A stretch of 64,000 nt of DNA from Nitrospirota bacterium. Its GTDB lineage: Bacteria > Nitrospirota > Thermodesulfovibrionia > Thermodesulfovibrionales > JdFR-85. The notes beneath the pieces were generated by a model. It was not told the origin of the DNA, ran no database searches, and saw only the letters and a list, made by a program, of their open reading frames with translations. This document shows positions 10,158 through 48,247 of this stretch, in pieces. The stretch is from positions 4,808 through 68,807 of the forward strand of contig DRKX01000089.1 of NCBI GenBank assembly GCA_011051565.1, written 5' to 3'. Numbering within the stretch: position 1 is the stretch's first letter; each line of letters opens with the position of its first letter. Position numbers and translations under genes: made by a program.

Positions 10158-10172
10158 CTCATTATTTCATTC

Positions 10173-10610: not shown

Positions 10611-10619
10611 GAGGTTGAG

Positions 10620-34346: not shown

Positions 34347-34376
34347 TTGACGAAAGAAGAGACAACCCTGTAAAAT
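34347..34376 (+). promoter_or_regulatory. Dedicated promoter of tRNA-Sec
   Basis: TTGACG (34347-34352), an 18-nt spacer, then TAAAAT (34371-34376). The first nucleotide of the tRNA lies 8 nt downstream of the -10. Confidence 0.55.
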
Positions 34377-34799: not shown

Positions 34800-37280
34800 A
34801 TGCCGTCTATCAACCAGTCGAATCCTTCAGCCGGCCGGCCGTACGCGCCGGATGTCCGTGTATTTGCGCTCGACGGCCTGCCCCACGGGATGCCTCTGTC
34901 GGAGATGCCGTCCGGATGCACGGAGCATCAGATCGTGGTCGTGGGCAGGGACATGAAGGTGAGGTATCTCAATCATGCCGCAAGGGCCGCTGCAGGCATC
35001 AAGGAGGGAGACACCGGAACCTACTTCTGCTATCAAGTCACCCATCGCAGGGACACGCCGTGCGATGCAGGCGGTGAGATATGCCCGGTGAAAGAGGTCT
35101 TCAGGACGGGCAGGCCCCTCACCGTGCACCACGAGTACTTCGACGGCGAGAGAAAAGGTTCCCTTCTCGAGGTCTACGCATTTCCCATATTCAGCGAAGA
35201 CGGCGAGGTCCTGGAGGTCACGGAGTTCATCAAGGAGGTGACCAAGAGGGACTTGTCCGAGAGGACACTGCTGTCCGAGGAGCGGTTCCGCAACCTCGTG
35301 GAGTCGACTCCGGATGCGATCATCACGGCCGATTCGAACGGGATAATCGTCTCGTGCAACAGCGCCGTCAATAACATCTTCGGCTACTCCCCGGCGGAAC
35401 TGATGGACAGGCCCGTGACCGTCATCATACCGGAGAGGTTTCATGAGAAACATTCAGAGGGGATGAGGCTGGTGCGTGACGGCCGAAAGCCGATACTTGC
35501 CGGAGAGACGATGGAACTGGTTGCCCTCAAGAAGGACGGGACGGAATTCCCCGTCGAACTCTCGCTCTCTTTATGGGCATCAAAGGGGGAGGTGTACTTC
35601 ACCGCCATCATAAGGGATATCACCATGCGCAAGAACGTCGAGGCGTCGCTTATAGAGGAGAAGCAGCGTCTCGAGTCGGTCCAGAGAGAACTCGTGAAAA
35701 AGCACGAAGAACAGGGCGTCCTATTCAGACAGGTGGAGGTTGCCAAGAAGGAGTGGGAGCGTACGGCTGACTGCCTCGACGACATGATCATACTCGCCGA
35801 CAGCGAGGGCAGGATAAGGAGGTGCAACAAGAGTGTCAGGGAGTTCTCCGGACTCTCGTATGATGAACTCATCGGAAGGAAATGGGAGGACCTGCTGAGT
35901 GAGCAGGGGGTCGAGGCATACAAGCTCTACCGCCACAGCGTGGAACTGAGACACAAGTCCACAGGCAGGCATTTCGTCCTGAGGTTCTATCCTTTCAAGG
36001 CCCTGAACAGTTATGAGAGCCCGGGCATCGTCATAACCATTCACGACCTGACGGAGCTCAAAAATGCTGCAGAGGTGCTCGAGAAAAAGAACAGGGAGAT
36101 AGACGAAAACCGGCGGAAGCTCCAGACCGCCCTTGATGAGATATCCTACCTGATCCAGAGGGTTACGCACGAGAAGGACTTCAGCATCAGGTTCGCCAAC
36201 CCCCACCTGAAGAGATGCAGCAAGGAGATGAACTGTACCGAGGAAGACTGCCCGTGTCATGGAGAAGCGGCCGCGCGGTGCTGGCAGGTGGTGGGCTCGC
36301 AATGCGGCGGTGACGCCAAGGGATACTTCGCGAAGCAACACGGGGACTGTTCGCGCTGTCCCGTGTTCAAAAGCGCCACGACGGACCCCATATACCAGAT
36401 CGGCGAGCACTTCAACAACATGATGCACATACTCGAGTTGCAGAACAGGGAACTCGAGACCGCATACACAGAGCTCAAGGCAACACAGACGAAGATCCTC
36501 CAGCAGGAAAAGATGGCGTCCATCGGACAGCTTGCAGCAGGCGTTGCACACGAGATCAACAACCCCATAGGCTTTATATCGAGCAACCTCGGTACTCTCG
36601 ACAAGTACGTCAGCAAACTCACGGAGTTCATCGATGCCCAGGCGGAAATCATCGCCGCCCTCGGCTCGGAGGAGTTCGAGAGGATTCTCGGTGAAAGGCG
36701 GCGGAAGCTCAAGCTCGACTACGTCATACCGGACATAAGGGCGCTCATCGAGGAATCGCTCGACGGCGCCGACAGGGTGAGGAAGATAGTCCAGGACCTC
36801 AAGAGTTTCTCCCGTGTCGACGAGGCCGAGTACAAGCATGCGGACATAAACGAGTGCATCGAGAGCACCATAAACATAGTCTGGAACGAACTCAAGTACA
36901 AGGCGGAGCTGAAGAAGGACTATGGAGAACTGCCCCTCACGAAGTGTTTCCCCCAGCAGCTGAACCAGGTCTTCATGAACCTCCTTGTCAATGCAGCGCA
37001 TGCCATAGAGAAGCAGGGCGAGATAACCGTGAGGACGAGCCATCAGGACGGTTCCATTTTCGTTGAGATATCGGACACCGGTGTCGGGATTCCCGAGGAG
37101 AACCTCGGCAGGATATTCGATCCGTTCTTCACGACTAAGGAGATAGGCAAGGGCACCGGTTTGGGCCTGAGCATAACCTACGACATCGTGAAGAAGCACA
37201 ACGGCGAGATCACTGTCCATAGCGAGGTGGGTGAGGGGACGACGTTTACTGTGAGAATCCCCGTGATGGATGGAAGGTGA
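34800..37280 (+). CDS. Cytoplasmic multi-PAS sensor histidine kinase with a Cys-rich module (HK1)
   Basis: There are three PAS-like segments and coiled coils. A Cys-rich block lies at aa 472-523. The HisKA H-box is [21 protein letters not shown]. HATPase_c shows [16 protein letters not shown] and GTGLGLS. The RBS GGAGGGGG lies 7 nt before ATG 34800. Confidence 0.85.
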
Positions 37281-37286
37281 CGGCAT

Positions 37287-38111
37287 ATGGATACGGGTGT
37301 GAGGATACTCTGCGTGGACGACGAAAGGAACGTCCTCAGGGCCATAGAGAGGCTCTTCCTCGACGACGACTACGAGATCATCACCGCTGCATCCGGCGAC
37401 GAGGGGCTTGATGTGCTGAGAGAGGTCTCACCCGTCCAGATCGTTTTGTCAGACTACAGGATGCCGGGGATGAACGGCGTCGATTTTCTCAAGGAGGTCT
37501 GCGAGCACTGGCCCGAGACGGTCAGGATCGTGCTCTCCGGTTATGCGGACACCGCGGCCGTGGTGTCCGCAATAAACGAGGGCCGTATATACAAGTTCAT
37601 ACCGAAGCCCTGGAACGACGACGAGCTCAAGGTCACGATATCCAATGCCATAGAGCGCTACATGCTGCACGAGAGGAACGCGGAACTCGCCAGGGAACTT
37701 CAGAAGAAGAACGAGGAGCTCCAGAAGGTGAACGACAACCTCGAGAGGCTCGTTGCGGAGAGGACCTCGGAGCTGATCTTTCAGAACAGGGCGTTGACCC
37801 ATTCTCAGAACATCCTCGACGCGCTTCCGGTCGCCGTGCTCGGCATAGATTCAGACGGACTGATAGTCCAGTGCAACGAGAAGGGCGTGGAGATGTTCGG
37901 AAGCGGCGGCGCTACGATACTCGGCATGGACAGGACGGCCGTGCTCTCCGAGGAGCTGAACGGCATGATAGACGGCGCCGTCAGGGACGGGCTTCAAACC
38001 GGTGACTTCCGCATCGGGGGGGTATCGATGGTCAGATTTGCGTCCATGAGGTATCCGGACGGGCAGGAGGGAGTGGTTCTGATCTTTTTTGGCGAGGGTG
38101 ATCATGCCTGA
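37287..38111 (+). CDS. Response regulator: REC + coiled coil + PAS-like domain, no enzymatic output
   Basis: REC motifs are ILCVDDERNV, LSDYRMPGMNG and KPWNDDEL. The C-terminal PAS-like segment reads ILDALPVAVLGIDSDGLIVQCNEKGVEMFG. Confidence 0.8.
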   Translation: MDTGVRILCVDDERNVLRAIERLFLDDDYEIITAASGDEGLDVLREVSPVQIVLSDYRMPGMNGVDFLKEVCEHWPETVRIVLSGYADTAAVVSAINEGRIYKFIPKPWNDDELKVTISNAIERYMLHERNAELARELQKKNEELQKVNDNLERLVAERTSELIFQNRALTHSQNILDALPVAVLGIDSDGLIVQCNEKGVEMFGSGGATILGMDRTAVLSEELNGMIDGAVRDGLQTGDFRIGGVSMVRFASMRYPDGQEGVVLIFFGEGDHA

Positions 38112-39099
38112 CACGGTGCTGCTCGTAGATGACGAGGAGTATGTCCTCAACTCGATAGAGCGGCTGCTCGTCTGCTGTGACGGCATCAGGGTGCTGAAGG
38201 CCGCTTCTGCAGACGAGGCCCTCGGTCTCATTGCTGAGGAGGCAGTGGCCGTGATCGTATCCGACAACATGATGCCCGGCATGAAGGGCATAGAGCTCCT
38301 CACGAGGGTCAGGGGGATATCTCCCGACACGGTGAGGATACTCCTTACCGCCTATGCCGACTTTCCGACGGCCATGGAGGCGATAAACAGCGGAGAGGTC
38401 TTCAGGTTCATCGTCAAGCCCTGGGACGACGACCTCCTGGTCAGGACCGTGCAGGAGGCCGCCGGCCGCCACCATATCATCCGCTCCCTCAGGGTGAAGG
38501 ACAAGGCCATACTGCTTTCGCTCGCCCAGACGATTGAGCTCAAGGACCCCTACACGAGGGGACACTGCGAGAGGGTTGCGGCCTATGCCCTCATGATAGC
38601 GGAAGCCCTCGGCCTCCCCGAGGCCTCGAAGAAAGACATAAAATACGGCAGCTGGCTTCACGACTGCGGTAAGGTGGGCGTTCCGGAGCAGATACTCAAC
38701 AACAGCTGTGGTATCGACGAGGAGGACTTCGAGGTCATAAAGCGACATCCAGTCTGGGGGGCTGACGTGGCGCGGCAGGCCCAGATGTCAGAGGTGATCG
38801 TGAATATCATACTCTACCACCACGAGAAGTTCAACGGCACGGGCTATCCGTCCGCGATCGAGGGGGAGAGCATCCCTGTAGAGGCAAGGATAGTGGCCGT
38901 AGCCGACGTCTTCGACGCCCTGACGACCGACAGGCCTTACAGGGCCGGGCTCAGCGAGGAGGAGGCGGTCGAGATAATCGCATCCTTGAGGGGTGAGAGC
39001 CTCGATCCCGAGATAGTCAACGTCTTTCTCTCGGAGCTGAAGCGCCGTTCCGGAGGGGATCGGCTGGTTAAGGAGGCAGGTCTGCATGAACAGCACTGA
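38104..39099 (+). CDS. Response regulator with HD-GYP c-di-GMP phosphodiesterase domain (RpfG-like) 1
   Basis: REC motifs are VLLVDDEEYV, VSDNMMPGMKG and KPWDDDLL. HD-GYP motifs are HDCGKVGVP and HHEKFNGTGYP. ATG 38104 overlaps the previous stop by 8 nt. Confidence 0.85.
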   Translation: MPDTVLLVDDEEYVLNSIERLLVCCDGIRVLKAASADEALGLIAEEAVAVIVSDNMMPGMKGIELLTRVRGISPDTVRILLTAYADFPTAMEAINSGEVFRFIVKPWDDDLLVRTVQEAAGRHHIIRSLRVKDKAILLSLAQTIELKDPYTRGHCERVAAYALMIAEALGLPEASKKDIKYGSWLHDCGKVGVPEQILNNSCGIDEEDFEVIKRHPVWGADVARQAQMSEVIVNIILYHHEKFNGTGYPSAIEGESIPVEARIVAVADVFDALTTDRPYRAGLSEEEAVEIIASLRGESLDPEIVNVFLSELKRRSGGDRLVKEAGLHEQH

Positions 39100-40405
39100 G
39101 ACAGTCACGGCCGTGAAGATACTGGTGGTCGACGACGAGGAGAACATACTCCGGGCGATAAGCAGGTTGCTGATGGACGAAGACCTCGACGTCCTGACCG
39201 CCACATCCGGCGAGGAGGCGTTGAGGATACTCGGATCCAACCGGGACGTGGGAGTCATCGTCTCGGACCAGCGCATGCCCGGTCTCACCGGCGTGGACTT
39301 CCTGGAGAAGGCGAGGAGGATCACCCCTGACACTATAAGGATCATGCTGACCGGGTACGCCGACGTGAACGCTGCCGTGGACGCTATAAACAGGGGCGGG
39401 GCGTACAGGTACGTGGCCAAGCCGTGGAAGGACGAAGAGCTCGTGCAGATCATAAGGGAGGCGGCGCAGAGGTTCTTCCTGACCAGGGAGAACAAGCGGC
39501 TGTCGGAGATGCTCAAGAAGAAGAACGAGGAACTAAGGGACTGGAACTCAAAGCTCGAGCTCTACGTGCAGGAGCAGACCAAGGAGATACAGAAGAACAA
39601 CGAGGAACTGCAGTCGCTGAACGAGCGGCTGAGGAAGAATTTCCAGAACTCGATCATAGCATTCTCGGGCCTCATAGAACTGCGTGACAGTGCGGTCAGG
39701 AACCACTCGAGGAACGTCGCCGAGGTCTCGAGAAAGGCGGCGGAGTCTTTGGGGTTGCCGGCCAGGGAGGTCGACACGATCACCATTGCGTCGCTCCTTC
39801 ATGATATCGGCAAGATCGGCATACCGGACGTCCTTCTCCGCAAGGGACTCGGAGACATGAGCCCCGAGGAACTCAAGGAGTACAGGCTCCACCCCGTAAG
39901 GGGGCAGGCCGCCATCGACTCCATAGAGGACCTGAGAGAGGCCGGTACACTCATAAGGCATCACCACGAATCATACGACGGAAGCGGGTTCCCGGACGGG
40001 CTCAAGGGGAGCGGGATACCCGTAGGTTCGCGGATCATCGGCATGGTGGACGCTGTGGACAAGGCCATGGGCAGCCTCTTGAGCGACAGCGCCGTGCAGG
40101 CGGCGCTGAAGGGCGTCAAGGATGCGCTGGGCAGGAGGTTCGCCCCCGGTCTGTACAAGCATGTCAGGGCCGCGGTCGAGGATACGTACTCGAAGGTCGT
40201 GGTCGAGACGGCCGTGGTCGAGCTCGAGCTGCATCCCGACAACCTCGAGGCGGGCATGGTCATCTCTCGTGACGTCTACAGCGGCACGGGCCTGCTGCTG
40301 CTCAGCAAGGGGCTGCAGCTCAACGAGAAGAACATACAGGCGATCAGGCGTTACTACCGGATCGATCCATCCAGGAGCGGTGTCTTCGTGATGGTGAAGA
40401 GGTAG
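39086..40405 (+). CDS. Response regulator with HD-GYP-type domain 2 (GFP variant) and a C-terminal extension
   Basis: REC motifs are ILVVDDEENI, VSDQRMPGLTG and KPWKDEEL. A coiled coil follows. HD-domain motifs are HDIGKIGIPD and HHESYDGSGFPDGL. A tail of about 70 aa follows. It overlaps the previous gene by 14 nt, with RBS AAGGAGG. Confidence 0.85.
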   Translation: MNSTETVTAVKILVVDDEENILRAISRLLMDEDLDVLTATSGEEALRILGSNRDVGVIVSDQRMPGLTGVDFLEKARRITPDTIRIMLTGYADVNAAVDAINRGGAYRYVAKPWKDEELVQIIREAAQRFFLTRENKRLSEMLKKKNEELRDWNSKLELYVQEQTKEIQKNNEELQSLNERLRKNFQNSIIAFSGLIELRDSAVRNHSRNVAEVSRKAAESLGLPAREVDTITIASLLHDIGKIGIPDVLLRKGLGDMSPEELKEYRLHPVRGQAAIDSIEDLREAGTLIRHHHESYDGSGFPDGLKGSGIPVGSRIIGMVDAVDKAMGSLLSDSAVQAALKGVKDALGRRFAPGLYKHVRAAVEDTYSKVVVETAVVELELHPDNLEAGMVISRDVYSGTGLLLLSKGLQLNEKNIQAIRRYYRIDPSRSGVFVMVKR

Positions 40406-40408
40406 TCC

Positions 40409-41068
40409 ATGATCGAGTTCGACAGGGAAGAGAAGAGGATGGTGCTGAAACTCGTATTCTACGGGCCGGCCCTTTCGGGCAAGACGACCAATCTCCTGAG
40501 GCTTCACGACCTCCTTGCACGCGAGGGCCGGGGGGAGTTGATGGTGCTCGATACGAGGGACGACAGGACGATCTTCTTCGATCTCCTCCCGTTCTTTCTC
40601 GTCACCCCGGGGGGACTGAAGATAAAGTTGAAGGTCTATACGGTTCCGGGCCAGGTGAAACACGATGCAACGAGGAAGGCCGTACTGCAGAGGGCGGACG
40701 GAGTGGCCTTCATCGCTGACTCCCGGCTGTCGGAGACGGCTAACAATTATTCGAGCTTCGAGAACCTCGAAAAGAACCTCGCCTTTGTCGGGATCGACAT
40801 CGAGACCGTCCCCCTCGTGATCCAGTTCAACAAGAGGGACCTCAGCGAGATCGTCCCCGAGACCGACATAGAACGCCTGTGGCGGCCCACGGGCATACCC
40901 GTCTTCATGGCCTCGGCCCTTCAGGGCTGGGGAGTAGTGGAGACCTTCGGCAGACTGGTGGAACTCACCTACGACGCCGTAGACAGAAAATGGGGCCTGC
41001 GCGAAGGATACGGACTCGAGAGGGAGGAGTTCGTTCGGCGGCTGACTCTGAGGGAGCAGGGTCGGTGA
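40409..41068 (+). CDS. MglA-type small Ras-like GTPase
   Basis: The P-loop is GPALSGKT. Switch II is TVPGQ, with Thr in place of the canonical Asp of DxxG, which is the MglA hallmark. G4 is NKRD. The start lies 3 nt after the previous stop. Confidence 0.8.
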   Translation: MIEFDREEKRMVLKLVFYGPALSGKTTNLLRLHDLLAREGRGELMVLDTRDDRTIFFDLLPFFLVTPGGLKIKLKVYTVPGQVKHDATRKAVLQRADGVAFIADSRLSETANNYSSFENLEKNLAFVGIDIETVPLVIQFNKRDLSEIVPETDIERLWRPTGIPVFMASALQGWGVVETFGRLVELTYDAVDRKWGLREGYGLEREEFVRRLTLREQGR

Positions 41069-41104: not shown

Positions 41105-42421
41105 ATGAATGAAGACCGTGAGGGTGCGGGCGGTATCGAGTACGTGGTCGGGGCCGAGAAGAGACTCTGCGAGATTCTCGGGGATGAAGAGATAATGCCG
41201 ATCCTGAGGAGTGCACTCCGCGCTGGGGTGTCGAGGATCGAGGTGAGGGACTCCAAGGGCAGGGTGCTCTGGGCCTGCGGTGATCCCACTGGCGGGGGAG
41301 GCCGTGCAAGGGAGGTCGCACCGCTCTGTCTCGAGGGCGAGCCTGCCGGCAGCATCATGGTCGAGATTCCCTCAAGCGGGCGACTGCGTCTCCGTGACTT
41401 CACAGGCCTGCTGAGCGAAGTGATGAACACGATGATAACCAACAACCTGAAGAGGATGCTGACGGCCGAGATACACACCACCGTGGTCGACCAGACCCAC
41501 GAGGAACTGATCGAGACGAACAGGAGGCTGCGCGCGTCCGAGTCGAGGTACCGAGAGCTCGCAGAGAGCCTCGACAGGAAGGTCCAGGAGCGTACGGAGG
41601 AGCTGAAGAGGATTCACACGAGGCTCATCCAGCAGGAGAAGGCCGCATCCATAGGGCTGCTGGCAGCGGGTGTGGCACACGAGATAAACACCCCACTCGG
41701 GTTCATATCGAGCAATCTCAACACCCTGAAGAGATACATGTCGAGATTCACCGAGATGCTGGACTTCTACCGCCGCATAGTCGGGGAGGCCGGCGACGGT
41801 GTCGCCGAGGAGGCCGCCAAGAAGTGGAGCGATCTCAAGCTCGGCTTCGTGGTAAGAGACGTCGGAGAGCTGATCAGCCAGAGCCTCGACGGAGCCGAGA
41901 GGGTGAGGAGGATCGTCGCGGACCTCAAGGGGTTTTCCCATGTCGATGACAGCAAGGAAGACGTCGTCGACCTTAACACGGAGATAGAGAGGACCTTCAG
42001 CGTGCTCGCCCACGAGATACCCGAAGACGCCGAGATCGAGAGGGACTACGGGTCGTTGCCTGGTTTTCTCTGCGATCCGGCCCTCGTCTGCCAGGTCTTC
42101 CTCAACATCATACTGAACTCCCTGCAGGCGAAGAAAGGGGGACTCAAGCTGCACGTGAGCACGAGGTTCGCCGGCGGAGACATAACGGTTGCGTTCACGG
42201 ACAACGGGCCCGGCATCCCCGATGACATCAGAGGGAGGATATTCGAGCCGTTCTTCACCACGAAGGACGTCGGCGAGGGTACGGGGCTTGGCCTGACCGT
42301 CACACGTGACATAGTGACCGCCTACGGCGGTGACATCGAGGTCGAAAGCCGGCCGGGTGCCGGCACGACCTTTCTCGTAAGGCTTCCGGCCGAGGGGGGG
42401 CGGGATGTCGAGGTACGCTGA
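41105..42421 (+). CDS. Cytoplasmic histidine kinase (HK2) with an uncharacterised ~130-aa N-terminal domain
   Basis: The H-box is [21 protein letters not shown], paralogous to HK1. HATPase_c shows NIILNSLQA, DNGPGI and GTGLGLT. ATG 41105 has RBS AAAGGGGA 7 nt upstream. GTG 41069 is the alternative start. Confidence 0.8.
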   Translation: MNEDREGAGGIEYVVGAEKRLCEILGDEEIMPILRSALRAGVSRIEVRDSKGRVLWACGDPTGGGGRAREVAPLCLEGEPAGSIMVEIPSSGRLRLRDFTGLLSEVMNTMITNNLKRMLTAEIHTTVVDQTHEELIETNRRLRASESRYRELAESLDRKVQERTEELKRIHTRLIQQEKAASIGLLAAGVAHEINTPLGFISSNLNTLKRYMSRFTEMLDFYRRIVGEAGDGVAEEAAKKWSDLKLGFVVRDVGELISQSLDGAERVRRIVADLKGFSHVDDSKEDVVDLNTEIERTFSVLAHEIPEDAEIERDYGSLPGFLCDPALVCQVFLNIILNSLQAKKGGLKLHVSTRFAGGDITVAFTDNGPGIPDDIRGRIFEPFFTTKDVGEGTGLGLTVTRDIVTAYGGDIEVESRPGAGTTFLVRLPAEGGRDVEVR

Positions 42422-44816
42422 GCTCTTCAGGTCCATAACCCCGGGTGCGACCGCCGCGGTCGAGTCTCTGCAGGAGGGCGGAGGCCCCGCCGAGCCGTTC
42501 ACGCTCCTCTTTCTCGACGACGAGCATGAAGTGCTCAACGCCCTGAAGAGGATATTCATAGATGAGAACTACCGGATACTCACGGCCGCATCCGTTGGCG
42601 AGGCCTTGGATTTGATGGAGCACGAGAGGGTCCACCTCGTCATATCCGACTACAGGATGCCGAAGGTGACCGGCGCCGAGTTCCTCAGGGAGGTGAAGCA
42701 GAGGTGGCCTGATACGATCAGGATAATGCTCACGGGACATGCGGACATACAGTCCATAATGGGGGCGGTGAACGACGGGGCGGTCTACAAGTTCATAACG
42801 AAGCCGTGGAACGACGAGGACCTGAGGCTCACCGTCAGTCTTGCGCTCCAGCAGTACGTGCTCATACAGGAGAACCGGAAGCTAAAGGAACTGACGAGGG
42901 AGCAGCAGCGCAGGATCAGGAACTACTCCGCCCACTTCAACGAAAACCGCGGGATCATGGGTGATATACTCGTCAAGTCGGGGACGATAAGCAGGGCCGA
43001 CCTGGATACGGCCTTGAAGGAGAAGGGGGATCAGGAATTCCTGGGCGAGACACTCGTGAGGCTCGGCCTGACCACTGAATCGAAGATAGTGAGGGCACTG
43101 CAGGAGCACCTGAACCTCGATTACATAGACCTGAGGGAGGTGAACCTGAGCCCGGCCGTAGTGGGCTTCCTGCCGCGTGACCTCTGCGAGAGGAACAGGC
43201 TGATCCCGGTGAAGGTGGCGGACAAGCAGATCACGATAGCCATGGCCGATCCATCCGATATATTCAAGTGCGACAACATAGCCCTGATGACCGGTCTCAA
43301 GGTGGTGCCGCTCGTTGCAAAGAGCTCGGACATCATGTTCCACTTGGGGAGGGCATACGACGGCTCCTCTGAGGCTGCCTTTGAAATGGACGGTATCTCA
43401 GCCATAGAGCCTCTCGATGAGATCGACATCATAATTGAGGAAGAGGATCCGGAGTTCAACGTGCAGGAGCTGATAGGCTCATCAGAGGTGCCGCCGGTCA
43501 TAAGGATTGTGAATGCGATAATCTCCGAGGCGATCCGCTACAAGGCGAGTGACATACACGTGGAGCCCAAGACGAAGTATTCCGTGATACGCTACCGGAT
43601 AGACGGCATGCTCCACAACAAGATCAAGATACCCTCCGACCTCCATCCCGCGACCATATCGAGGATAAAGATACTCGCCAAGATGGACATCGCCGAGAGG
43701 CGCAAGCCCCAGGACGGCCGGATAACGGTCAAGTCAGGCACGAGGATCGTGGACATAAGGGTCTCCACGATGCCGACCATCAACGGCGAGAAGGTGGTCA
43801 TGAGGATACTCGACAAGAATGCAGCCATCAAGCGGCTGAACGAACTCGGCGTCTCGCCCGCCGACCTCGACAAGCTCTATGCCCTTATCAAGAAGCCCCA
43901 GGGCATAATCATCTCCACTGGCCCCACAGGCAGCGGGAAGACGACGATGCTCTACTCCATACTGAACGAGATGCTCCAGAGCACGAAGAACTTCGAGACC
44001 ATCGAGGACCCTGTGGAGTATTTTCTCGAGGAGGCGAGCCAGGTCTATGTGAGGGAGAAGATAGGGCTCTCCTTTGCCTCTGTACTGCGGGCCACCCTGA
44101 GGCAGGACCCCGACGTCATCCTCGTCGGAGAGATACGTGACCACGAGACCGCCGACGTGGCGTTCAAGGCCGCCCTGACAGGTCACATGGTGCTGACGAC
44201 CCTCCATACGAACAATTCTGTGGCTTCAGTGACGCGGCTTATAGACATGGGCGTCAAACCCTACCTCATAGCTTCTGCCCTCGAGGGCATACTCGCGCAG
44301 AGGCTCGTCCGGAAGGTCTGCAGGTACTGCAGGAGGGAGGCCCCGCCGGACAGGGATTTGATGAGGCTGCTCAAGATACCTCCGGACTCCCTCGGTGACA
44401 GGACGTTCAGGGGGACCGGATGCGAGAGGTGCAATCACACGGGTTATCTCGGGAGGACCGGGATATTCGAGGTCTTCATCATGAACGACGACTTCAGGCA
44501 CTTCATTAGCAGTGCGTACAAGGAGGCGGAACTCCTGAACATGGCCCGCTCAGCGGGGATGAAGACCCTCATGGAAGACGGCATAGACAAGGTGAGGCAG
44601 GGAGAGACCACGCTCGATGAACTGCTTAGGGTGATAGGAACACAGACGAGACACGAACGCACGTGCGAGGAGTGCGGGAGGCTGATCGATGCAAAGTTCC
44701 TGTTCTGTCCCTACTGCGGCAGCTTCAAGCAGAACTTCTGCAGACAGTGCCGGATGCCCCTCGAGGACGACTGGCGGTTGTGCCCGTTCTGCGGCGGCGG
44801 CAGGGTCGGCCGGTGA
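42405..44816 (+). CDS. REC - T2SSE_N/MshEN-like - PilB/GspE-family hexameric ATPase - double zinc ribbon fusion protein
   Basis: REC spans about aa 33-150 (LLFLDDEHEV, ISDYRMPKVTG, KPWNDEDL). The N-terminal GspE domain carries two 24-aa MshEN-like repeats. Walker A is GPTGSGKTT. Walker B and the Asp/His boxes are DPDVILVGEIRD and TGHMVLTTLHTN. The canonical tetra-Cys motif is CRYC...CERC. An extra C-terminal segment reads CEECG..CPYCG..CRQC..CPFCG. It overlaps HK2 by 17 nt. Confidence 0.85.
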   Translation: MSRYAELFRSITPGATAAVESLQEGGGPAEPFTLLFLDDEHEVLNALKRIFIDENYRILTAASVGEALDLMEHERVHLVISDYRMPKVTGAEFLREVKQRWPDTIRIMLTGHADIQSIMGAVNDGAVYKFITKPWNDEDLRLTVSLALQQYVLIQENRKLKELTREQQRRIRNYSAHFNENRGIMGDILVKSGTISRADLDTALKEKGDQEFLGETLVRLGLTTESKIVRALQEHLNLDYIDLREVNLSPAVVGFLPRDLCERNRLIPVKVADKQITIAMADPSDIFKCDNIALMTGLKVVPLVAKSSDIMFHLGRAYDGSSEAAFEMDGISAIEPLDEIDIIIEEEDPEFNVQELIGSSEVPPVIRIVNAIISEAIRYKASDIHVEPKTKYSVIRYRIDGMLHNKIKIPSDLHPATISRIKILAKMDIAERRKPQDGRITVKSGTRIVDIRVSTMPTINGEKVVMRILDKNAAIKRLNELGVSPADLDKLYALIKKPQGIIISTGPTGSGKTTMLYSILNEMLQSTKNFETIEDPVEYFLEEASQVYVREKIGLSFASVLRATLRQDPDVILVGEIRDHETADVAFKAALTGHMVLTTLHTNNSVASVTRLIDMGVKPYLIASALEGILAQRLVRKVCRYCRREAPPDRDLMRLLKIPPDSLGDRTFRGTGCERCNHTGYLGRTGIFEVFIMNDDFRHFISSAYKEAELLNMARSAGMKTLMEDGIDKVRQGETTLDELLRVIGTQTRHERTCEECGRLIDAKFLFCPYCGSFKQNFCRQCRMPLEDDWRLCPFCGGGRVGR

Positions 44817-44873: not shown

Positions 44874-45431
44874 ATGGAAGACTGCATACTCCTGGTGGAT
44901 GACGAACCCAACATCATATCTTCACTCAAGAGGGTCCTCATGGACGAGCAATACACTATATTCTCGGCCAACAGCGGAGCCGAGGCCCTCGATATCCTGA
45001 AGGAACAGAGGATAAAGGTGGTGATCTCCGACGAGCGCATGCCGGGCATGTCAGGGGCTGAGTTCCTCTCGATCGTGAGGAACCGGTTTCCCGGGGTCGT
45101 CAGGATCGTCCTGACGGGTCATGCGAGCATAGAGGCTGCCATGAGTGCGGTCAACAACGGGGAGATATACAGGTTCTTCACAAAGCCTTGGAACGATGTG
45201 GAACTGAAGCTCTCGATACGCTCGGCCGTCGAGAAACACGACCTCGAGGCAGAGAACAGGAGGCTCCTCAGCATAGTGAGGACCCAGGCGCTCGAGCTGA
45301 AGCTGCTCGAGAAGCGATATCCGAACATCACGAAGATCGAGCGCGACGACGACGGAAACCTGATCCTGCCCGACATCTCGGACGAGGATCTCTCCGCGAT
45401 CGTCGCCCAGTGTGAGAGGGAGTTTACATGA
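44874..45431 (+). CDS. Stand-alone response regulator (REC plus a ~70-aa C-terminal helix-rich tail)
   Basis: The start MEDCILLVDDEPNI has RBS AAGGAGGA 7 nt upstream. ATG 44841 is the alternative. REC motifs are ISDERMPGMSG and KPWNDVEL. Confidence 0.8.
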   Translation: MEDCILLVDDEPNIISSLKRVLMDEQYTIFSANSGAEALDILKEQRIKVVISDERMPGMSGAEFLSIVRNRFPGVVRIVLTGHASIEAAMSAVNNGEIYRFFTKPWNDVELKLSIRSAVEKHDLEAENRRLLSIVRTQALELKLLEKRYPNITKIERDDDGNLILPDISDEDLSAIVAQCEREFT

Positions 45432-46291
45432 GCAAGAGCCGCAACATAGAGACGTTCGTTTCAGGGGTGAAGGACCTGCCGACCCTTCCCTCCGTCGTGC
45501 TCAAGGTCAACCAGGCACTGATGGACAGCTCGGCGACCATCGACTCGGTCAGCAGCATAGTCGAGAGGGACCCGGCCCTTACAGCCAAGGTGCTCAGGTT
45601 GGCCAACTCGAGCTACTACGGGTTTTCCTCCTCCGTGGACACCCTGTCGAGGGCCGTCACCGTCCTCGGTTTCAACACCATAAGGAGTCTTGCGACCACG
45701 GTCTCCGTCTTCAAGATATTCAAGAGGGAGCCGTCGGGCTCCTTCGACATGCATGGCCTGTGGCTTCACAGCCTCGGCTGTGCGATCGCCTCGAAGGTCC
45801 TCGTCCACGCGATGGGGACTGCACTTCGAGAGAAGGCCTTCGTTTGCGGCCTGATACACGACATAGGAAAGGTCGTCATCGCGCAGAACCTTCCTGACGA
45901 GACGGCGGAGGTCCTGAGGCGCCTCGAGGATGACGGTTCCCCGGACATGGCTGAGGTGGAAGAGGAGGTCATAGGGTTCGCCCACACCGGTGTGGGTGCG
46001 CTCATAGCCGAGAGGTGGCATTTCCCGAGGGAGCTCTCCGAGGCCATCAGGCTTCACCACAGGTCCGGAGACGATCCGGACGAGGCGCATCCGGTCTTGA
46101 CGTATGCCGTGTATGCCGGAAACCAGATTGCAAAGGAGCGCGGGCTCGGCAGGAGCCAGAACAGGAAGGTCCGTGAGGTCCAGGCGTGGGTGCGGGAGAG
46201 GCTGGGCGTGTCTGTGGAGGATCTGCCGGGGCTGCTTGAGAGGACCGAGTATGACTTCAACACTGTGGTGAACTCGTGGGACCTCGCTTGA
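45428..46291 (+). CDS. HDOD-domain protein
   Basis: It has an ATGA overlap with the previous gene. Motifs are LPTLPSVVLKVNQAL, LANSSYYGF and GLIHDIGKVVI, typical of HDOD. Confidence 0.8.
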   Translation: MSKSRNIETFVSGVKDLPTLPSVVLKVNQALMDSSATIDSVSSIVERDPALTAKVLRLANSSYYGFSSSVDTLSRAVTVLGFNTIRSLATTVSVFKIFKREPSGSFDMHGLWLHSLGCAIASKVLVHAMGTALREKAFVCGLIHDIGKVVIAQNLPDETAEVLRRLEDDGSPDMAEVEEEVIGFAHTGVGALIAERWHFPRELSEAIRLHHRSGDDPDEAHPVLTYAVYAGNQIAKERGLGRSQNRKVREVQAWVRERLGVSVEDLPGLLERTEYDFNTVVNSWDLA

Positions 46292-46884: not shown

Positions 46885-46913
46885 TTGACTTTAAGGAAGT
46901 CCCTGTGTATATA
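46885..46913 (+). promoter_or_regulatory. Putative promoter of lysA-dapF-pilZ-dapA
   Basis: TTGACT (46885-46890), a 17-nt spacer, then TATATA (46908-46913). TATAAT follows at 46910-46915. Confidence 0.5.
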
Positions 46914-46953
46914 ATATAAGGTTTGATAACGAGGCCGTTCGAGGGGAGGACCC

Positions 46954-48210
46954 ATGGATTACTTCAGATATGTAAGGGGAGAGCTCTTTGCCGAAGACGT
47001 GCCTGTTGAGGCCCTCATCGAAGAGTACGGCACGCCCCTGTACGTTTACAGCCACAGGACGCTCGCGAGGCACTTGGATGCATACGCTCATGCATTCGCC
47101 GAGGTCCCTCACATCGTGTGCTTTGCAGCTAAGGCCAACTCGAACAGTGCAATACTGCGCCTGGTGGCGCGGCACGGCGGCGGTGCCGACATCGTATCCG
47201 GAGGAGAGCTCTACAGGGCCCTCCGCGTGGGCATACCCCCGGAAAAGATAGTCTATGCCGGCGTGGGCAAGACGGATGACGAGATACGGTATGCCCTCGG
47301 CAAGAGGATATTGATGTTCAATGTCGAGTCCGGTCAGGAGCTCGAGAGGATCAACGCCGTAGCAGGCCGTATGGGGGTCAAGGCTCCGGTGGCGCTGAGG
47401 ATAAACCCTGATATCGATCCCGAGACCCATCCATACATATCGACCGGCCTCAGGAAGCACAAGTTCGGCATTCCTATAGAGAACGCCCTCGAGTACTACA
47501 GGCTGGCGAAACGGCTCGAGAATGTCGAGATCATAGGGGTGCACAAGCATATCGGTTCCCAGATAACCCGCGTGAGTCCCTTTGTCGACGCCCTCCAGAG
47601 GGTGCTCGTTCTCGTGGAGAGCCTGAGGGCCGAGGGGATCGGGCTGAGATATCTGGACATAGGAGGCGGGCTTGGGATACAATATAACGACGAAAGACCG
47701 CCCCATCCGAAGGAGTTGGCACGAAGACTCCTGCCGCTCCTCAGGGGACGGGAGATAACCCTGATCATGGAGCCGGGACGCTCCATTGCCGGGAATGCGG
47801 GCATCCTTCTCACCAAGGTGCTCTACCTGAAGAGGGGGGATGACAGGGAGTTCGTGATAGTGGATGCCGGGATGAACGACCTGATGAGGCCCACGCTGTA
47901 CGACGCCTATCACCACATAGCCCCTGTCAGAAAGAACAGGCGCAGGAAGATCACGGCGGATATCGTCGGTCCCGTATGTGAGTCTGGTGATTTCCTTGCA
48001 AGGAACAGGGAGATCAACCGGGTCGAGCAGGGCGAGTATCTCGCCGTCATGAGTGCCGGGGCCTATGGTTTCTCCATGAGCTCCAACTACAACAGCCGTC
48101 CACGGCCGGCCGAGGTGCTCGTCAGGGGCGGCGAACACTATGTCATAAGAAAACGGGAGACATACAGGGACCTCGTCCGCGGCGAGGTGATCCCCGACTT
48201 CTTGCAGTAG
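46954..48210 (+). CDS. lysA: Diaminopimelate decarboxylase
   Basis: The protein is colinear with LysA over its full length. Motifs are FAAKANSN (PLP Lys), GGGLGI, EPGRSI and CESGD. Confidence 0.95.
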   Translation: MDYFRYVRGELFAEDVPVEALIEEYGTPLYVYSHRTLARHLDAYAHAFAEVPHIVCFAAKANSNSAILRLVARHGGGADIVSGGELYRALRVGIPPEKIVYAGVGKTDDEIRYALGKRILMFNVESGQELERINAVAGRMGVKAPVALRINPDIDPETHPYISTGLRKHKFGIPIENALEYYRLAKRLENVEIIGVHKHIGSQITRVSPFVDALQRVLVLVESLRAEGIGLRYLDIGGGLGIQYNDERPPHPKELARRLLPLLRGREITLIMEPGRSIAGNAGILLTKVLYLKRGDDREFVIVDAGMNDLMRPTLYDAYHHIAPVRKNRRRKITADIVGPVCESGDFLARNREINRVEQGEYLAVMSAGAYGFSMSSNYNSRPRPAEVLVRGGEHYVIRKRETYRDLVRGEVIPDFLQ

Positions 48211-48247
48211 ATTCGGGATGATGATGGATCTCACGGTGATATGAAGT

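What the first reader, a model, noticed from the sequence alone, without database searches (positions are those of the whole stretch)
42405..44816. PilB/GspE-type ATPase fused to an N-terminal receiver and a C-terminal double zinc ribbon, with no cognate machinery nearby
The 803-aa protein has four parts. The REC domain (about nt 42501-42854) has an intact DD...D...K set. The T2SSE_N/MshEN-like domain spans about nt 42951-43364. The complete ATPase core (about nt 43482-44639) has Walker A GPTGSGKTT, Asp and His boxes, and the usual tetra-Cys CRYC...CERC. A 50-aa tail (nt 44661-44798) carries four more CxxC pairs (CEEC, CPYC, CRQC, CPFC). The N-domain contains two 24-aa repeats separated by 4 aa: IMGDILVKSGTISRADLDTALKEK and FLGETLVRLGLTTESKIVRALQEH. 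These follow the MshEN c-di-GMP-binding pattern RLGxx(L/V/I)(L/V/I)xxG(L/V/I)(L/V/I)xxxxLxxxLxxQ. However, the first position is I/F instead of R and the last is K/H instead of Q, so binding is uncertain. Direct phosphorylation control of a pilus/T2SS motor ATPase, possibly stacked with c-di-GMP control, is unusual. The two adjacent HD-GYP enzymes could set the local ligand level.
Basis: partly seen in the sequence, partly recalled or inferred. Interest (0 to 1): 0.75.

Follow-up and report, generated by a model that had tools for sequence, protein, structure and literature searches.

The report
Receiver-fused PilB-like ATPase in signalling operon
The 803-aa protein is a real, well-conserved pilus-motor-type ATPase fused to a phosphorylation receiver and a zinc-ribbon tail, and it always sits in a signalling operon with its own kinase and an MglA-like GTPase, never beside pilus genes, so it is an uncharacterised but already catalogued variant and not a one-off oddity.

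Summary
ORF 42405-44816 (+) encodes REC (aa 35-143), a long helix, MshEN_N/MshEN_C (184-322), a complete T2SSE ATPase (363-742) and a double zinc ribbon (754-797). All catalytic, phospho-acceptor and Cys residues are invariant in 77 relatives.

It is not unique. Full-length relatives with 48-99% identity occur in at least 275 species genomes, including Nitrospirota, Geobacter/Desulfuromonadales and Desulfobacteraceae. The REC-MshEN-T2SSE architecture was listed in 2016 (Gmet_3473) with no functional reference, and I found no study of it.

The gene sits in a conserved unit: PAS kinase, REC-PAS, one or two REC-HD-GYP, an MglA-family GTPase, a dedicated kinase, the ATPase, a small REC, and sometimes HDOD. 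The kinase directly precedes the ATPase in 67/71 loci and the GTPase is present in at least 64/71. No pilus or secretion gene recurs beside it.

Stacked c-di-GMP control is not supported. Neither 24-aa motif fits even the relaxed published pattern in any of 77 relatives or 16 more distant REC-fused representatives.

Best reading: a phosphorylation-gated PilB paralogue that is the output of a branched two-component/GTPase module and probably acts on a machine encoded elsewhere. Interest is moderate.

The parts
34347..34376 (+). Best sigma-70-like promoter match, upstream of the first gene of the operon
   Evidence: TTGACG-18-TAAAAT, 10/12 matches. This is a consensus match only.
34800..37280 (+). 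Sensor histidine kinase HK1 (PAS-PAS-HisKA-HATPase_c, 826 aa)
   Evidence: Pfam. A PAS- or Cache-type kinase lies upstream in 41/52 related loci with enough flank.
37287..38111 (+). REC-PAS response regulator (274 aa)
   Evidence: Pfam. Its REC plus linker matches the NosR-family model at 222 bits. Present in 38/52 loci.
38104..39099 (+). REC-HD-GYP response regulator 1 (331 aa as called; the ORF opens at TTG 38089)
   Evidence: Pfam Response_reg + HD_5. HD, HHE and GYP motifs are intact. The start comes from the called gene in L081.
39086..40405 (+). REC-HD-GYP response regulator 2 (439 aa), NosR family
   Evidence: NCBIfam NF053512 at 477 bits, above the 400 cut-off, matched full length. It has HD, HHHE and GFP in place of GYP.
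40409..41068 (+). MglA-family small GTPase (219 aa)
   Evidence: E = 1.2e-42 to M. xanthus MglA (5YMX) over residues 9-190. It keeps the P-loop GPALSGKTT, the 'DDRT' arginine and TVPGQ. Present upstream of the kinase in at least 64/71 loci.
41105..42421 (+). Dedicated cytoplasmic histidine kinase HK2 (438 aa as called; the ORF opens at GTG 41069): a small GAF/PAS-like N-domain, a coiled coil, HisKA and HATPase_c
   Evidence: Pfam. The best NCBIfam hit is 'T2SS_HK' NF038348 at 251 bits, below its cut-off. It directly precedes the ATPase gene in 67/71 loci and overlaps the ATPase start by 17 nt.
42405..44816 (+). REC-MshEN-T2SSE-DZR ATPase (803 aa), the finding itself
42507..42833 (+). Receiver domain (aa 35-143); the phospho-acceptor D82 is the codon at 42648-42650
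   Evidence: Pfam at 81.5 bits. D38, D39, D82, T110 and K133 are invariant in 77 sequences. pLDDT is 82-90.
42813..42932 (+). Long linker helix (aa 137-176) joining REC to MshEN_N
   Evidence: AF2 gives a single helix at 137-176. The same REC-plus-linker unit matches the NosR model (positions 1-144) in all five receivers of the operon.
42954..43109 (+). MshEN_N four-helix subdomain with two degenerate 24-aa repeats (aa 184-207 and 212-235)
   Evidence: HMMER alignment to PilB/PilF/MshE. AF2 helices. Family profile. The relaxed c-di-GMP motif matches 0/77.
43110..43370 (+). MshEN_C / T2SSE N1 subdomain (aa 236-322)
   Evidence: Pfam MshEN at 73.3 bits.
43491..44630 (+).
   Evidence: Pfam T2SSE at 438.8 bits. 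The motifs are invariant. It aligns end to end with Geobacter PilB, 5ZFR, at 482 bits.
44664..44795 (+). C-terminal double zinc ribbon (aa 754-797, four CxxC)
   Evidence: Pfam DZR at 29.7 bits, above the 27.3 cut-off. All eight Cys are invariant in 76-77 of 77 sequences.
44874..45431 (+). Small stand-alone receiver with a roughly 60-aa tail (185 aa as called; the ORF opens at 44841)
   Evidence: Pfam. NosR-type REC at 200 bits. Found downstream of the ATPase in 38/72 loci.
45428..46291 (+). HDOD-domain protein (287 aa), the last gene of the operon
   Evidence: Pfam HDOD at 219.8 bits. It is an accessory component, found in 11 of the related loci.

Best explanation
The gene encodes a phosphorylation-gated paralogue of the type IV pilus / type II secretion extension ATPase PilB. 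It is one output of a self-contained, horizontally shared signalling operon.

Proposed mechanism:
1. Two kinases feed five paralogous receivers. HK1 is PAS-sensing. HK2 is a cytoplasmic kinase translationally coupled to an MglA-family GTPase that probably modulates it.
2. The five receivers sit on a REC-PAS protein, two HD-GYP phosphodiesterases, a small REC protein and the ATPase.
3. Phosphorylation of D82 acts through the conserved REC-linker helix (aa 137-176) on the N-terminal MshEN/N1 region. This switches the hexameric motor on or off, or controls its docking to a platform.
4. In parallel, the HD-GYP regulators lower cyclic-dinucleotide levels.
5. The machine the motor drives (PilC/GspF-type platform, pilins) is encoded elsewhere.

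The MshEN_N subdomain keeps its fold but has lost the canonical c-di-GMP-binding residues, so the receiver replaces c-di-GMP as the input instead of adding to it.

Shown here: the architecture, residue conservation, operon conservation, paralogy to PilB and motif degeneracy. Inferred: phosphotransfer partners, GTPase-kinase coupling, the effect of phosphorylation, and the target machine.
For: Architecture and intact catalytic sites:
- Pfam and NCBIfam domain calls.
- The receiver quintet D38/D39/D82/T110/K133, the ATPase motifs (Walker A, GEIRD, TLHTN), the tetra-Cys and all eight DZR Cys are invariant in 77 relatives.
- The ATPase core is the most conserved part, with 74% mean identity.
- Residues 184-744 align end to end with Geobacter PilB (482 bits).

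Dedicated kinase and GTPase:
- An HK2-type kinase directly precedes the gene in 67/71 loci. The MglA-like GTPase is present in at least 64/71.
- In the window the genes abut or overlap: GTPase stop at 41068, HK2 ORF from 41069, and HK2 overlapping the ATPase by 17 nt.
- The GTPase is a true MglA relative (E = 1e-42).

One signalling unit:
- All five receivers share the NosR-type REC-plus-linker unit (about 190-260 bits) and a KPW(N/D/K)(D/E) signature.
- The whole operon is conserved in a Geobacter MAG and in G. metallireducens GS-15 with unrelated flanks.
- No other gene family recurs in the flanks.

Paralogue, not the canonical PilB:
- G. metallireducens has its own PilB (5TSG/5TSH) in addition to Gmet_3473.
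- G. sulfurreducens has pilB in a pil cluster plus mshE.
- The protein scores below the PilB and GspE equivalog cut-offs (561 vs 675.65; 558 vs 630.25).

Independent support for REC-ATPase coupling:
- A permuted architecture, MshEN-T2SSE-DZR-REC, exists (P0301, P0307, P0308, P0314, P0315).
- One such gene (P0314) is followed by its own kinases and again has no pilus genes nearby.

c-di-GMP motif loss:
- 0/77 family members match the relaxed motif, and so do 0/16 REC-fused representatives of either polarity.
- By contrast, 45/132 PilB-like representatives overall match.

Precedent for receivers acting on PilB in trans: cyanobacterial PATAN-REC regulators (bioRxiv 10.1101/2021.06.11.447907; PMC11181946).
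Against: - No platform, pilin, PilM/N/O or secretin gene lies next to the gene in any of about 80 loci, or near two REC-less DZR-tailed relatives. That it drives a filament machine is therefore an assumption based only on homology.
- Whether this Nitrospirota genome has such a machine at all could not be checked beyond the window.
- The fold search does not identify the HK2 N-domain as an MglB/Roadblock-type GTPase partner. It looks like a minimal GAF/PAS fold at TM about 0.5.
- The AlphaFold model has pTM 0.41, so it says nothing about how REC contacts the ATPase.
- The very high cross-phylum identity (66-74%) is unusual for a motor that must fit lineage-specific machines.
- Bdellovibrio Bd2402 binds c-di-GMP although its first 24-aa motif is non-canonical; its second motif is canonical. 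Non-canonical nucleotide binding therefore cannot be excluded.
Confidence: 0.5

Rival explanations
1. The protein is a signalling or scaffolding ATPase, not a filament motor. The hexamer acts as a nucleotide- and phosphorylation-dependent switch inside the MglA-like GTPase/kinase module, for example in cell-polarity or surface-behaviour signalling, and never engages a pilus or secretion platform.
For: - It is consistently orphan. No machine gene lies beside it in about 80 loci, beside REC-less DZR-tailed relatives or beside the C-terminal-REC variant.
- It is always embedded among signalling genes.
- Its very high cross-phylum conservation, within a transferable operon with unrelated flanks, fits a self-contained unit.
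- M. xanthus PilB is reported to act as a signalling protein for EPS regulation (PMC5544727, listed).
- The invariant extra DZR tail suggests a partner other than the classical machine.
Against: - All catalytic motifs, and the N1 (MshEN_C) subdomain that in T2SS/T4P ATPases contacts the machine, are retained under strong constraint.
- No ATPase of the PilB/GspE clade is known to work wholly without a platform.
- Orphan paralogues of PilB/PilT that use a machine encoded elsewhere are common, for example the four pilT genes and mshE in Geobacter.
Confidence: 0.27
2. This is the first reader's reading: dual control. The motor integrates receiver phosphorylation and cyclic-dinucleotide binding at the MshEN_N subdomain (c-di-GMP, or another dinucleotide such as 3'3'-cGAMP). 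The operon's HD-GYP enzymes set the local ligand level.
For: - The MshEN_N four-helix fold and most hydrophobic motif positions are kept.
- R182 (60/77) and Q233 (67/77) are conserved two residues out of register with the canonical Arg/Gln positions.
- One or two REC-HD-GYP genes are conserved in the operon (42/52 loci). HD-GYP1 has intact HD/HHE/GYP motifs.
- Wang et al. note that perfect motif conservation may not be required, citing Bd2402.
Against: - Both Arg and both Gln of the two motifs are replaced: I184, K207, F212 and H235.
- Family-wide, position 1 is hydrophobic in both motifs. The Gly of motif 2 is Gly in only 20/77 sequences, and Ser in 30.
- 0/77 family members and 0/16 other REC-fused representatives match even the relaxed pattern that Wang et al. 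used for database mining. REC-less relatives often do match.
- XpsE, which has comparable substitutions, does not bind.
Confidence: 0.15
3. It is simply the organism's canonical PilB or GspE, displaced from its pilus or secretion locus.
For: It gives strong PilB/GspE-type matches over the full length of those proteins. The rest of this genome could not be inspected.
Against: - It scores below both equivalog cut-offs.
- In G. metallireducens the orthologue coexists with the crystallised canonical PilB.
- The gene travels with a signalling operon and not with pil or gsp genes in every lineage sampled.
Confidence: 0.05

Closest known systems
REC-MshEN-T2SSE architecture class, catalogued in Wang et al. 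2016 (Nat Commun 7:12481, Suppl. Table 4; example G. metallireducens Gmet_3473 / ABB33681)
   Same: The domain order is the same. Gmet_3473 is a relative of the window protein set in the same operon: REC-HD-GYP, MglA-like GTPase, HK2, 823-aa ATPase, small REC.
   Different: That paper lists only the architecture, gives its distribution as beta-, gamma- and delta-proteobacteria, and cites no function. It does not mention the C-terminal double zinc ribbon, the conserved operon, the MglA-like GTPase or the Nitrospirota members. Here the c-di-GMP motif of this class is shown to be degenerate.
Canonical T4aP extension ATPase PilB (Geobacter PilB, PDB 5TSG/5TSH/5ZFR; M. xanthus PilB 3JC8; T. thermophilus PilF)
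   Same: MshEN_N, MshEN_C, N2D, CTD, all ATPase motifs and the tetra-Cys zinc site are shared. The alignment covers residues 184-744 against 19-578 of Geobacter PilB.
   Different: The window protein has an extra N-terminal receiver plus linker helix and an extra C-terminal DZR. It scores below the PilB equivalog cut-off, is not encoded with pilC/pilT/pilA, and has replaced the RLG...Q c-di-GMP residues.
V. cholerae MshE / MshEN c-di-GMP receptor domain (PDB 5HTL)
   Same: The N-terminal domain is homologous (E = 8e-14) and has the same internal duplication of two 24-residue units.
   Different: Both Arg and both Gln of the binding motif are missing, the spacer is 4 residues instead of 5, and the relaxed motif is not matched.
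Myxococcus MglA/SofG small GTPases, which position or activate the PilB/PilT motors
   Same: An MglA-family GTPase (E = 1e-42 to MglA) is functionally linked to a PilB-type ATPase. In Myxococcus, SofG is involved in correctly positioning PilB and PilT (Wuichet & Sogaard-Andersen 2014, PMC4316618).
   Different: Here the link is a conserved operon with a histidine kinase between the two genes. No MglB/Roadblock, RomR or bactofilin gene is in the operon. This neighbourhood did not appear in the passages of the 2014 survey of MglA gene neighbourhoods that I read.
Receiver proteins that control PilB in trans (Synechocystis PATAN-REC regulators PixE/PixG/TaxP1; Xanthomonas PdeK-PdeR-FimX-PilZ-PilB)
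   Same: Two-component phosphorylation is routed to the pilus extension motor (PMC11656802).
   Different: In those systems the receiver is a separate protein that binds the motor. Here it is fused in cis, at either end of the ATPase in different lineages.
NosP/NosK/NosR-type REC-HD-GYP signalling (Burkholderia pseudomallei; PMC12570481)
   Same: REC-HD-GYP2 of the operon passes the NCBIfam NosR-family cut-off. All five receivers, including that of the ATPase, carry the NosR-type REC-plus-linker unit.
   Different: There is no NosP/FIST sensor gene in the operon. The kinases are PAS-type and GAF/PAS-like. The ATPase and the GTPase are not part of the described Nos system.
Streptomyces conservon (CvnA kinase, CvnB Roadblock, CvnC, CvnD MglA-like GTPase)
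   Same: It also pairs an MglA-family GTPase with a histidine kinase in a conserved operon.
   Different: The window operon has no Roadblock or CvnC gene, its kinase is cytoplasmic, it includes receivers, and its output includes a PilB-like ATPase.

Membership tests
PilB/GspE-type secretion-superfamily ATPase (Pfam T2SSE) | Walker A, Asp box, Walker B and His box in an N2D + CTD core | tested here: met
   Pfam T2SSE at 438.8 bits over aa 363-742. GPTGSGKTT at 506, the GEIRD motif at 575 and the TLHTN motif at 599 are invariant in relatives.
PilB/GspE-type secretion-superfamily ATPase (Pfam T2SSE) | Tetra-cysteine zinc site in the CTD | tested here: met
   C639, C642, C673 and C676 are invariant in 77/77 sequences.
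T4aP assembly ATPase PilB (NCBIfam TIGR02538 equivalog) | Score at or above the curated equivalog cut-off | tested here: not met
   561.4 bits against a cut-off of 675.65.
T2SS ATPase GspE (NCBIfam TIGR02533 equivalog) | Score at or above the curated equivalog cut-off | tested here: not met
   558.5 bits against a cut-off of 630.25.
Pilus / T2SS motor as part of a machine locus | Encoded with platform (PilC/GspF), PilM/GspL, pilins or secretin | tested here: not met
   None of these is in the 64-kb window. No such family recurs in the flanks of about 80 related loci.
c-di-GMP-binding MshEN domain (Wang et al. 2016) | MshEN_N four-helix bundle plus MshEN_C fold | tested here: met
   HMMER alignment to 5HTL, PilB and PilF. 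AF2 gives four helices at 185-236, then an alpha/beta subdomain at 240-319.
c-di-GMP-binding MshEN domain (Wang et al. 2016) | Two copies of RLGxx(L/V/I)(L/V/I)xxG(L/V/I)(L/V/I)xxxxLxxxLxxQ, or the relaxed [RKPN]hGxxhhxx[GAS]hhxxxxhxxxhxx[QNKRYWST] | tested here: not met
   I184/K207 and F212/H235 replace R/Q. The strict and relaxed patterns match 0/77 family members.
c-di-GMP-binding MshEN domain (Wang et al. 2016) | Measured c-di-GMP binding | not testable with these tools
   This needs DRaCALA or ITC on residues 178-325.
Two-component response regulator (receiver domain) | Acidic pocket DD, phospho-acceptor Asp, and conserved Thr and Lys | tested here: met
   D38, D39, D82, T110 and K133 are invariant in 77/77 sequences. 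Pfam Response_reg at 81.5 bits. pLDDT is 82-90.
Two-component response regulator (receiver domain) | Cognate histidine kinase | tested here: inconclusive
   A kinase gene with an H-box (AHEINTPL) directly precedes and overlaps the gene, and does so in 67/71 loci. Phosphotransfer itself is untested.
Double zinc ribbon (Pfam DZR, PF12773) | Four CxxC pairs; score at or above the gathering cut-off | tested here: met
   29.7 bits against a cut-off of 27.3. All eight Cys are invariant. Metal binding is untested.
REC-MshEN-T2SSE class (Gmet_3473) | Same domain order as, and relationship to, the named example | tested here: met
   The G. metallireducens locus L085 encodes an 823-aa REC-MshEN-T2SSE protein in the same operon. 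Its position fits the Gmet_3469/3471 landmarks.
MglA family (neighbouring 219-aa protein) | P-loop, intrinsic arginine, TxxGQ in place of DxxGQ | tested here: met
   E = 1.2e-42 to MglA 5YMX. GPALSGKTT, DDRT and TVPGQ are visible in the alignment.
MglA family (neighbouring 219-aa protein) | Partner MglB (Roadblock/LC7) GAP | tested here: not met
   There is no Roadblock gene in the operon. The HK2 N-domain resembles GAF/PAS folds more than Roadblock, at weak scores.

The most novel reading that the evidence does not exclude
The operon may be an undescribed kind of control system. In it, an MglA-family G protein gates a dedicated histidine kinase that directly phosphorylates a PilB-type hexameric ATPase. 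In parallel, HD-GYP regulators would clear cyclic dinucleotides. That would amount to G-protein-coupled two-component control of a secretion-superfamily motor. The ATPase would then either drive an unrecognised machine through its invariant double zinc ribbon or act as a non-motor switch. The unit would have spread horizontally among anaerobic Nitrospirota, Desulfuromonadota and Desulfobacterota.
Probability: 0.25. Interest if true: 0.8.

Novelty: new variant of a known kind. Interest (0 to 1): 0.55.

Why it matters
- PilB-type motors are normally regulated by accessory proteins or by c-di-GMP bound to MshEN. A widespread clade exists in which a receiver is fused to the motor, at either end, while the c-di-GMP signature has decayed. 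This suggests phosphorylation and c-di-GMP are interchangeable inputs to the same N-terminal regulatory region.
- The invariant pairing with an MglA-like GTPase and a private kinase links bacterial Ras-like G proteins, two-component signalling and cyclic-dinucleotide turnover in a single operon.
- The operon is present in Geobacter metallireducens GS-15, a cultured strain with a complete genome. G. sulfurreducens pil mutants have been made. The hypothesis is therefore directly testable.
- Public annotation of these proteins is inconsistent and partly misleading: 'Flp pilus assembly complex ATPase component TadA', 'response regulator', 'secretion system protein E'.

Tried and rejected
1. HK2 N-domain as an MglB/Roadblock-like GTPase partner.
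- A profile of 28 N-domains against PDB found only a weak PhoR PAS-like hit (E = 0.067).
- Pfam found nothing consistent.
- The AlphaFold2 model (pLDDT 78.8) gave best Foldseek hits to GAF/PAS domains (4g3k, E = 1.4e-3, TM 0.51). Roadblock proteins scored weaker (6b9x_B, E = 0.15).

2. Literature.
- No paper mentions Gmet_3473 or the hyphenated names I searched for this fusion: REC-MshEN, REC-PilB, REC-T2SSE, REC-GspE, receiver-PilB, CheY-PilB.
- The neighbouring locus tags occur only in the genome paper, for unrelated genes.
- The 2024 PilB review contains no occurrence of 'receiver' or 'fused'.
- The passages I read of the 2014 MglA survey do not describe this neighbourhood.

3. Apparent long 'GTPase fusions' (up to 562 aa). 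These turned out to be artefacts of my crude ORF calling in GC-rich loci.

4. Flank clustering to find a hidden machine. The most frequent extra family is an unrelated receiver protein in 9 loci, followed by Rho in 7.

5. Cluster-member look-up to find a characterised orthologue. It returned only generic names.

6. Inter-domain packing from the full-length AlphaFold model. This was rejected as evidence because pTM is 0.41.

7. Canonical-PilB reading. Rejected for Geobacter, where both proteins coexist.

Full report
**1. Observation**

The ORF at 42405-44816 on the + strand starts with ATG and encodes 803 aa. Pfam finds four domains:
- Response_reg at aa 35-143 (81.5 bits).
- MshEN at aa 236-322 (73.3 bits).
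- T2SSE at aa 363-742 (438.8 bits).
- DZR at aa 754-797 (29.7 bits, cut-off 27.3).

The Pfam MshEN model covers only the C-terminal subdomain. HMMER aligns them to the duplicated N-terminal units of Geobacter PilB, Thermus PilF and Vibrio MshE, and to the MshEN part of the NfrB model (aa 179-323).

An AlphaFold2 model built on 56 relatives has mean pLDDT 71.5. It gives:
- a receiver at 32-135;
- one long helix at 137-176;
- four helices at 185-236;
- an alpha/beta subdomain at 240-319;
- a disordered linker at 321-360;
- the two ATPase lobes;
- a low-confidence zinc-ribbon tail.

Its pTM is 0.41, so inter-domain packing cannot be read from it.

**2. The protein belongs to a conserved family**

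The 120 best database hits cover 92-100% of the query at 66-99% identity. All carry REC + MshEN + T2SSE, and most also have a detectable DZR. A scan of one genome per species found relatives in 275 genomes. The closest are Thermodesulfovibrionia/Nitrospirota at 70-74% identity. Geobacterales/Desulfuromonadales follow at 63-68%, and Desulfobacteraceae at about 48%. Single hits come from Acidobacteriota, an anammox MAG, Deferrimicrobium and Dissulfurispiraceae.

In an alignment of 77 full-length relatives:
- the receiver residues D38, D39, D82, T110 and K133 are invariant;
- the four core cysteines are invariant;
- seven of the eight tail cysteines are invariant and the eighth is present in 76 of 77.

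Walker A (GPTGSGKTT) and the GEIRD and TLHTN motifs are invariant in the 56-sequence alignment. The ATPase core (74% mean identity) and the receiver (71%) are the most conserved parts.

The receiver pocket is therefore not degenerate, and the zinc ribbon is an integral part of the family.

**3. Prior knowledge**

Wang et al. 2016 defined the MshEN c-di-GMP receptor. Their Supplementary Table 4 lists 'REC - MshEN - T2SSE' with Geobacter metallireducens Gmet_3473 as the example. It gives the distribution as beta-, gamma- and delta-proteobacteria and cites no functional reference.

I located that gene. The G. metallireducens GS-15 chromosome encodes an 823-aa REC-MshEN-T2SSE protein directly after a kinase 53% identical to the window's HK2. 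The neighbouring alpha-amylase and pirin-fragment genes fit the published Gmet_3469 and Gmet_3471 landmarks.

Literature searches turned up no study:
- No paper in the library mentions Gmet_3473, and none uses any of the six hyphenated names I searched for this fusion.
- The 2024 review of PilB regulation contains no occurrence of 'receiver' or 'fused'.

Public names for these proteins are generic or wrong: 'TadA', 'response regulator', 'secretion system protein E'.

**4. Context, which is the main new point**

In the window the gene is the seventh of nine + strand genes that abut or overlap:
1. PAS-PAS histidine kinase (34800-37280).
2. REC-PAS (37287-38111).
3. REC-HD-GYP (38104-39099).
4. 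REC-HD-GYP of the NosR family (39086-40405; 477 bits against a cut-off of 400).
5. A 219-aa protein (40409-41068).
6. A cytoplasmic histidine kinase, HK2 (41105-42421).
7. The ATPase (42405-44816).
8. A small receiver (44874-45431).
9. An HDOD protein (45428-46291).

The 219-aa protein gave only weak Ras/Arf hits in Pfam. It is nevertheless a clear MglA-family GTPase. It matches Myxococcus MglA at E = 1.2e-42 over its whole length and keeps the P-loop, the intrinsic arginine and the TVPGQ signature.

I called ORFs in 81 related loci and assigned them to the nine window proteins with phmmer:
- An HK2-type kinase directly precedes the ATPase gene in 67 of 71 loci with enough upstream DNA.
- The MglA-like GTPase precedes that kinase in at least 64 of 71.
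- A REC-HD-GYP gene lies upstream in 42 of 52 loci.
- REC-PAS lies upstream in 38 of 52.
- A sensor kinase lies upstream in 41 of 52.
- The small receiver lies downstream in 38 of 72.
- HDOD is present in 11 loci.

These counts rest on crude ORF calling and best-hit assignment among paralogues, so they are approximate.

Clustering all the remaining flank ORFs found no other recurrent family. The commonest was an unrelated receiver protein in 9 loci. Flanking genes differ completely between the Nitrospirota window, a Geobacter MAG and G. metallireducens.

The rest of the 64-kb window is housekeeping. It contains no pilin, PilC/GspF, PilM-Q or secretin gene.

**5. The five receivers are paralogues**

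All five receivers of the operon match the first 121-168 positions of the NosR-family model (REC plus helical linker) at about 190-260 bits. All carry a KPW(N/D/K)(D/E) signature. The arrangement therefore looks like a branched phosphorelay in which two kinases serve five closely related receivers. This is an inference.

HD-GYP1 has intact HD, HHE and GYP motifs. HD-GYP2 has HD, HHHE and GFP in place of GYP.

**6. Relation to PilB and GspE**

Residues 184-744 align end to end with Geobacter PilB (5ZFR at 482 bits; 5TSG at 471 bits). They align slightly less well with Thermus PilF, Myxococcus PilB and Vibrio EpsE.

The protein scores below the curated cut-offs of both the PilB equivalog (561.4 against 675.65) and the GspE equivalog (558.5 against 630.25).

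G. metallireducens has its own crystallised PilB. G. sulfurreducens has pilB in a pil cluster with pilC, pilT4 and pilA, plus mshE. The receiver-fused ATPase is therefore an additional paralogue there, not the canonical motor.

**7. c-di-GMP binding**

HMMER aligns the two repeats with the canonical RLG...Q motifs of Geobacter PilB. Both Arg are replaced (I184, F212), and both Gln are replaced (K207, H235).

Family-wide:
- Position 1 is I/V/A in motif 1 and F/I/L in motif 2.
- The Gly of motif 2 is Gly in only 20 of 77 sequences, and Ser in 30.
- R182 (60/77) and Q233 (67/77) are conserved, but each lies two residues before the canonical position.

Neither the strict motif nor the relaxed pattern that Wang et al. 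used for database mining matches any of the 77 relatives. The MshEN fold is kept, but the defining binding signature is not.

**8. The wider clade**

A full HMMER scan of 1.84 billion 50%-identity representatives gave the following:
- The core family (relatives above roughly 50% identity) collapses to a single full-length representative (P0010, 74%).
- Eleven further full-length representatives have an N-terminal receiver, at 36-49% identity.
- About 58 of the top 150 align from about residue 180 through the zinc ribbon without an N-terminal receiver.

So MshEN-T2SSE-DZR is a broad clade. Pfam shows that several of these representatives carry the receiver at the C-terminus instead, as MshEN-T2SSE-DZR-REC (P0301, P0307, P0308, P0314, P0315).

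The receiver has therefore been joined to this ATPase clade at both ends, which argues for real functional coupling. The gene for one C-terminal-receiver member is followed by an FHA-GAF kinase and a REC-kinase, again without pilus genes. Of the REC-less members looked up, one has no pilus genes within 8-10 kb and another sits on a short contig followed by a DnaJ-domain gene.

None of the 16 receiver-fused representatives, of either polarity, matches the relaxed c-di-GMP motif. Across the PilB-like representatives in the same list, 45 of 132 match, and some REC-less DZR-tailed members match. These sequences are related, so this is a trend and not a statistic. It suggests that phosphorylation replaces c-di-GMP as the input rather than adding to it.

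**9. The kinase N-domain**

HK2 has a conserved N-terminal domain of about 100 aa with no Pfam match.
- Its profile hits only the PhoR PAS-like sensor, weakly.
- Its AlphaFold model (pLDDT 78.8) has the order helix, four strands, long helix.
- Foldseek places it nearest to GAF and PAS domains at TM about 0.5. Roadblock proteins score lower.

I cannot say that it is the GTPase-binding element. That step of the mechanism stays an inference from gene order.

**10. Mechanism and verdict**

The most likely reading, at about 0.5, is a phosphorylation-gated PilB paralogue. It would be the output of a self-contained operon, apparently shared between phyla, that combines a G protein, two kinases, five receivers and cyclic-dinucleotide phosphodiesterases. 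It would act on a filament or secretion machine encoded elsewhere.

The main rival, at about 0.27, is that it is a non-motor signalling ATPase. The complete absence of machine genes beside any member of the clade fits this, as does the very high cross-phylum conservation.

The 'displaced canonical PilB' reading is unlikely, at about 0.05.

Relative to characterised systems this is a new variant of a known kind. The bare architecture was catalogued in 2016. I found no description of the zinc-ribbon tail, the permuted relatives, the decay of the c-di-GMP motif, or the conserved MglA-like GTPase/kinase operon.

Interest is moderate. It is not startling for a specialist, but it is a well-defined hypothesis that can be tested directly in Geobacter.

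Noticed in passing
window 41105-41480 (N-terminal ~125 aa of HK2): A conserved cytoplasmic domain with no Pfam match (pattern vG.Ek.L...pLL..av.AGa...D..G..Lw..G...p..lEGE..G), followed by a highly conserved helix (NLKRMLTTE.HT.VVNQSYEELLE). The AF2 model has the order helix, four strands, long helix, and its nearest folds are GAF/PAS at weak scores. It may be the element that senses the MglA-like GTPase.
   Followed up: partly
P0301, P0307, P0308, P0314, P0315 (loci L090-L092): Permuted relatives with the architecture MshEN-T2SSE-DZR-REC, where the receiver sits after the zinc ribbon. In L091/L092 the gene is followed by FHA-GAF-HK and REC-HK genes, and a PilZ gene lies 2.3 kb upstream.
   Followed up: partly
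P0311, P0323, P0336 and about 58 of the top 150 representatives; loci L086-L089: A large clade of PilB-like ATPases carries a C-terminal double zinc ribbon but no N-terminal receiver. The longest contig examined shows no pilus or secretion genes nearby, and a short one shows a DnaJ-domain gene downstream. P0292 is DUF4388-(MshEN)x4-T2SSE-DZR and P0291 looks like a T2SSF+T2SSE fusion.
   Followed up: partly
window 29716-30210 and 30180-30890: A PilZ domain fused to a thioredoxin-2-type zinc ribbon (164 aa) is followed, with overlap, by a ComF-like protein (DZR_2 + phosphoribosyltransferase). This is another c-di-GMP-receptor / zinc-ribbon pairing in the same window.
   Followed up: no
window about 49042/49138-49434: A small PilZ-domain ORF (99-130 aa depending on the start) overlaps the end of dapF inside the lysA-dapF-dapA cluster.
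   Followed up: no
window 46891-48390 (-) versus 46954-48210 (+): The 499-aa minus-strand ORF has no Pfam match. It shadows the plus-strand lysA gene (Orn/DAP/Arg decarboxylase, as called in L081). The minus-strand ORF is probably spurious.
   Followed up: partly
window 2187-5022 and 5080-7386: A cdaA (c-di-AMP synthase)-ybbR-glmM operon is followed by a ComEC-type competence channel gene (Competence + metallo-beta-lactamase domains). ComEC is the only filament- or DNA-uptake-related gene in the window, and it lies 35 kb from the ATPase.
   Followed up: no
L003 and L016 (Nitrospirota loci): A second MglA hit of 195 aa (about 145 bits, probably the canonical MglA) lies within 10 kb of the operon in two loci. 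I did not check whether an MglB gene accompanies it.
   Followed up: no
window 56329-59775 (-) and 59985-62414 (+); L085 16989-21320: An alpha-glucan water dikinase-like gene and a GH57/DUF3536 gene lie downstream in the window. In G. metallireducens the operon is next to alpha-amylase/trehalose-synthesis genes. This is probably coincidental.
   Followed up: no
window 10572-12005 (-), 17243-18370 (-), 9659-10246 (-), 7361-7897 (-): These ORFs of 177-476 aa have no Pfam match at E <= 1e-5. I did not check whether they are real genes.
   Followed up: no
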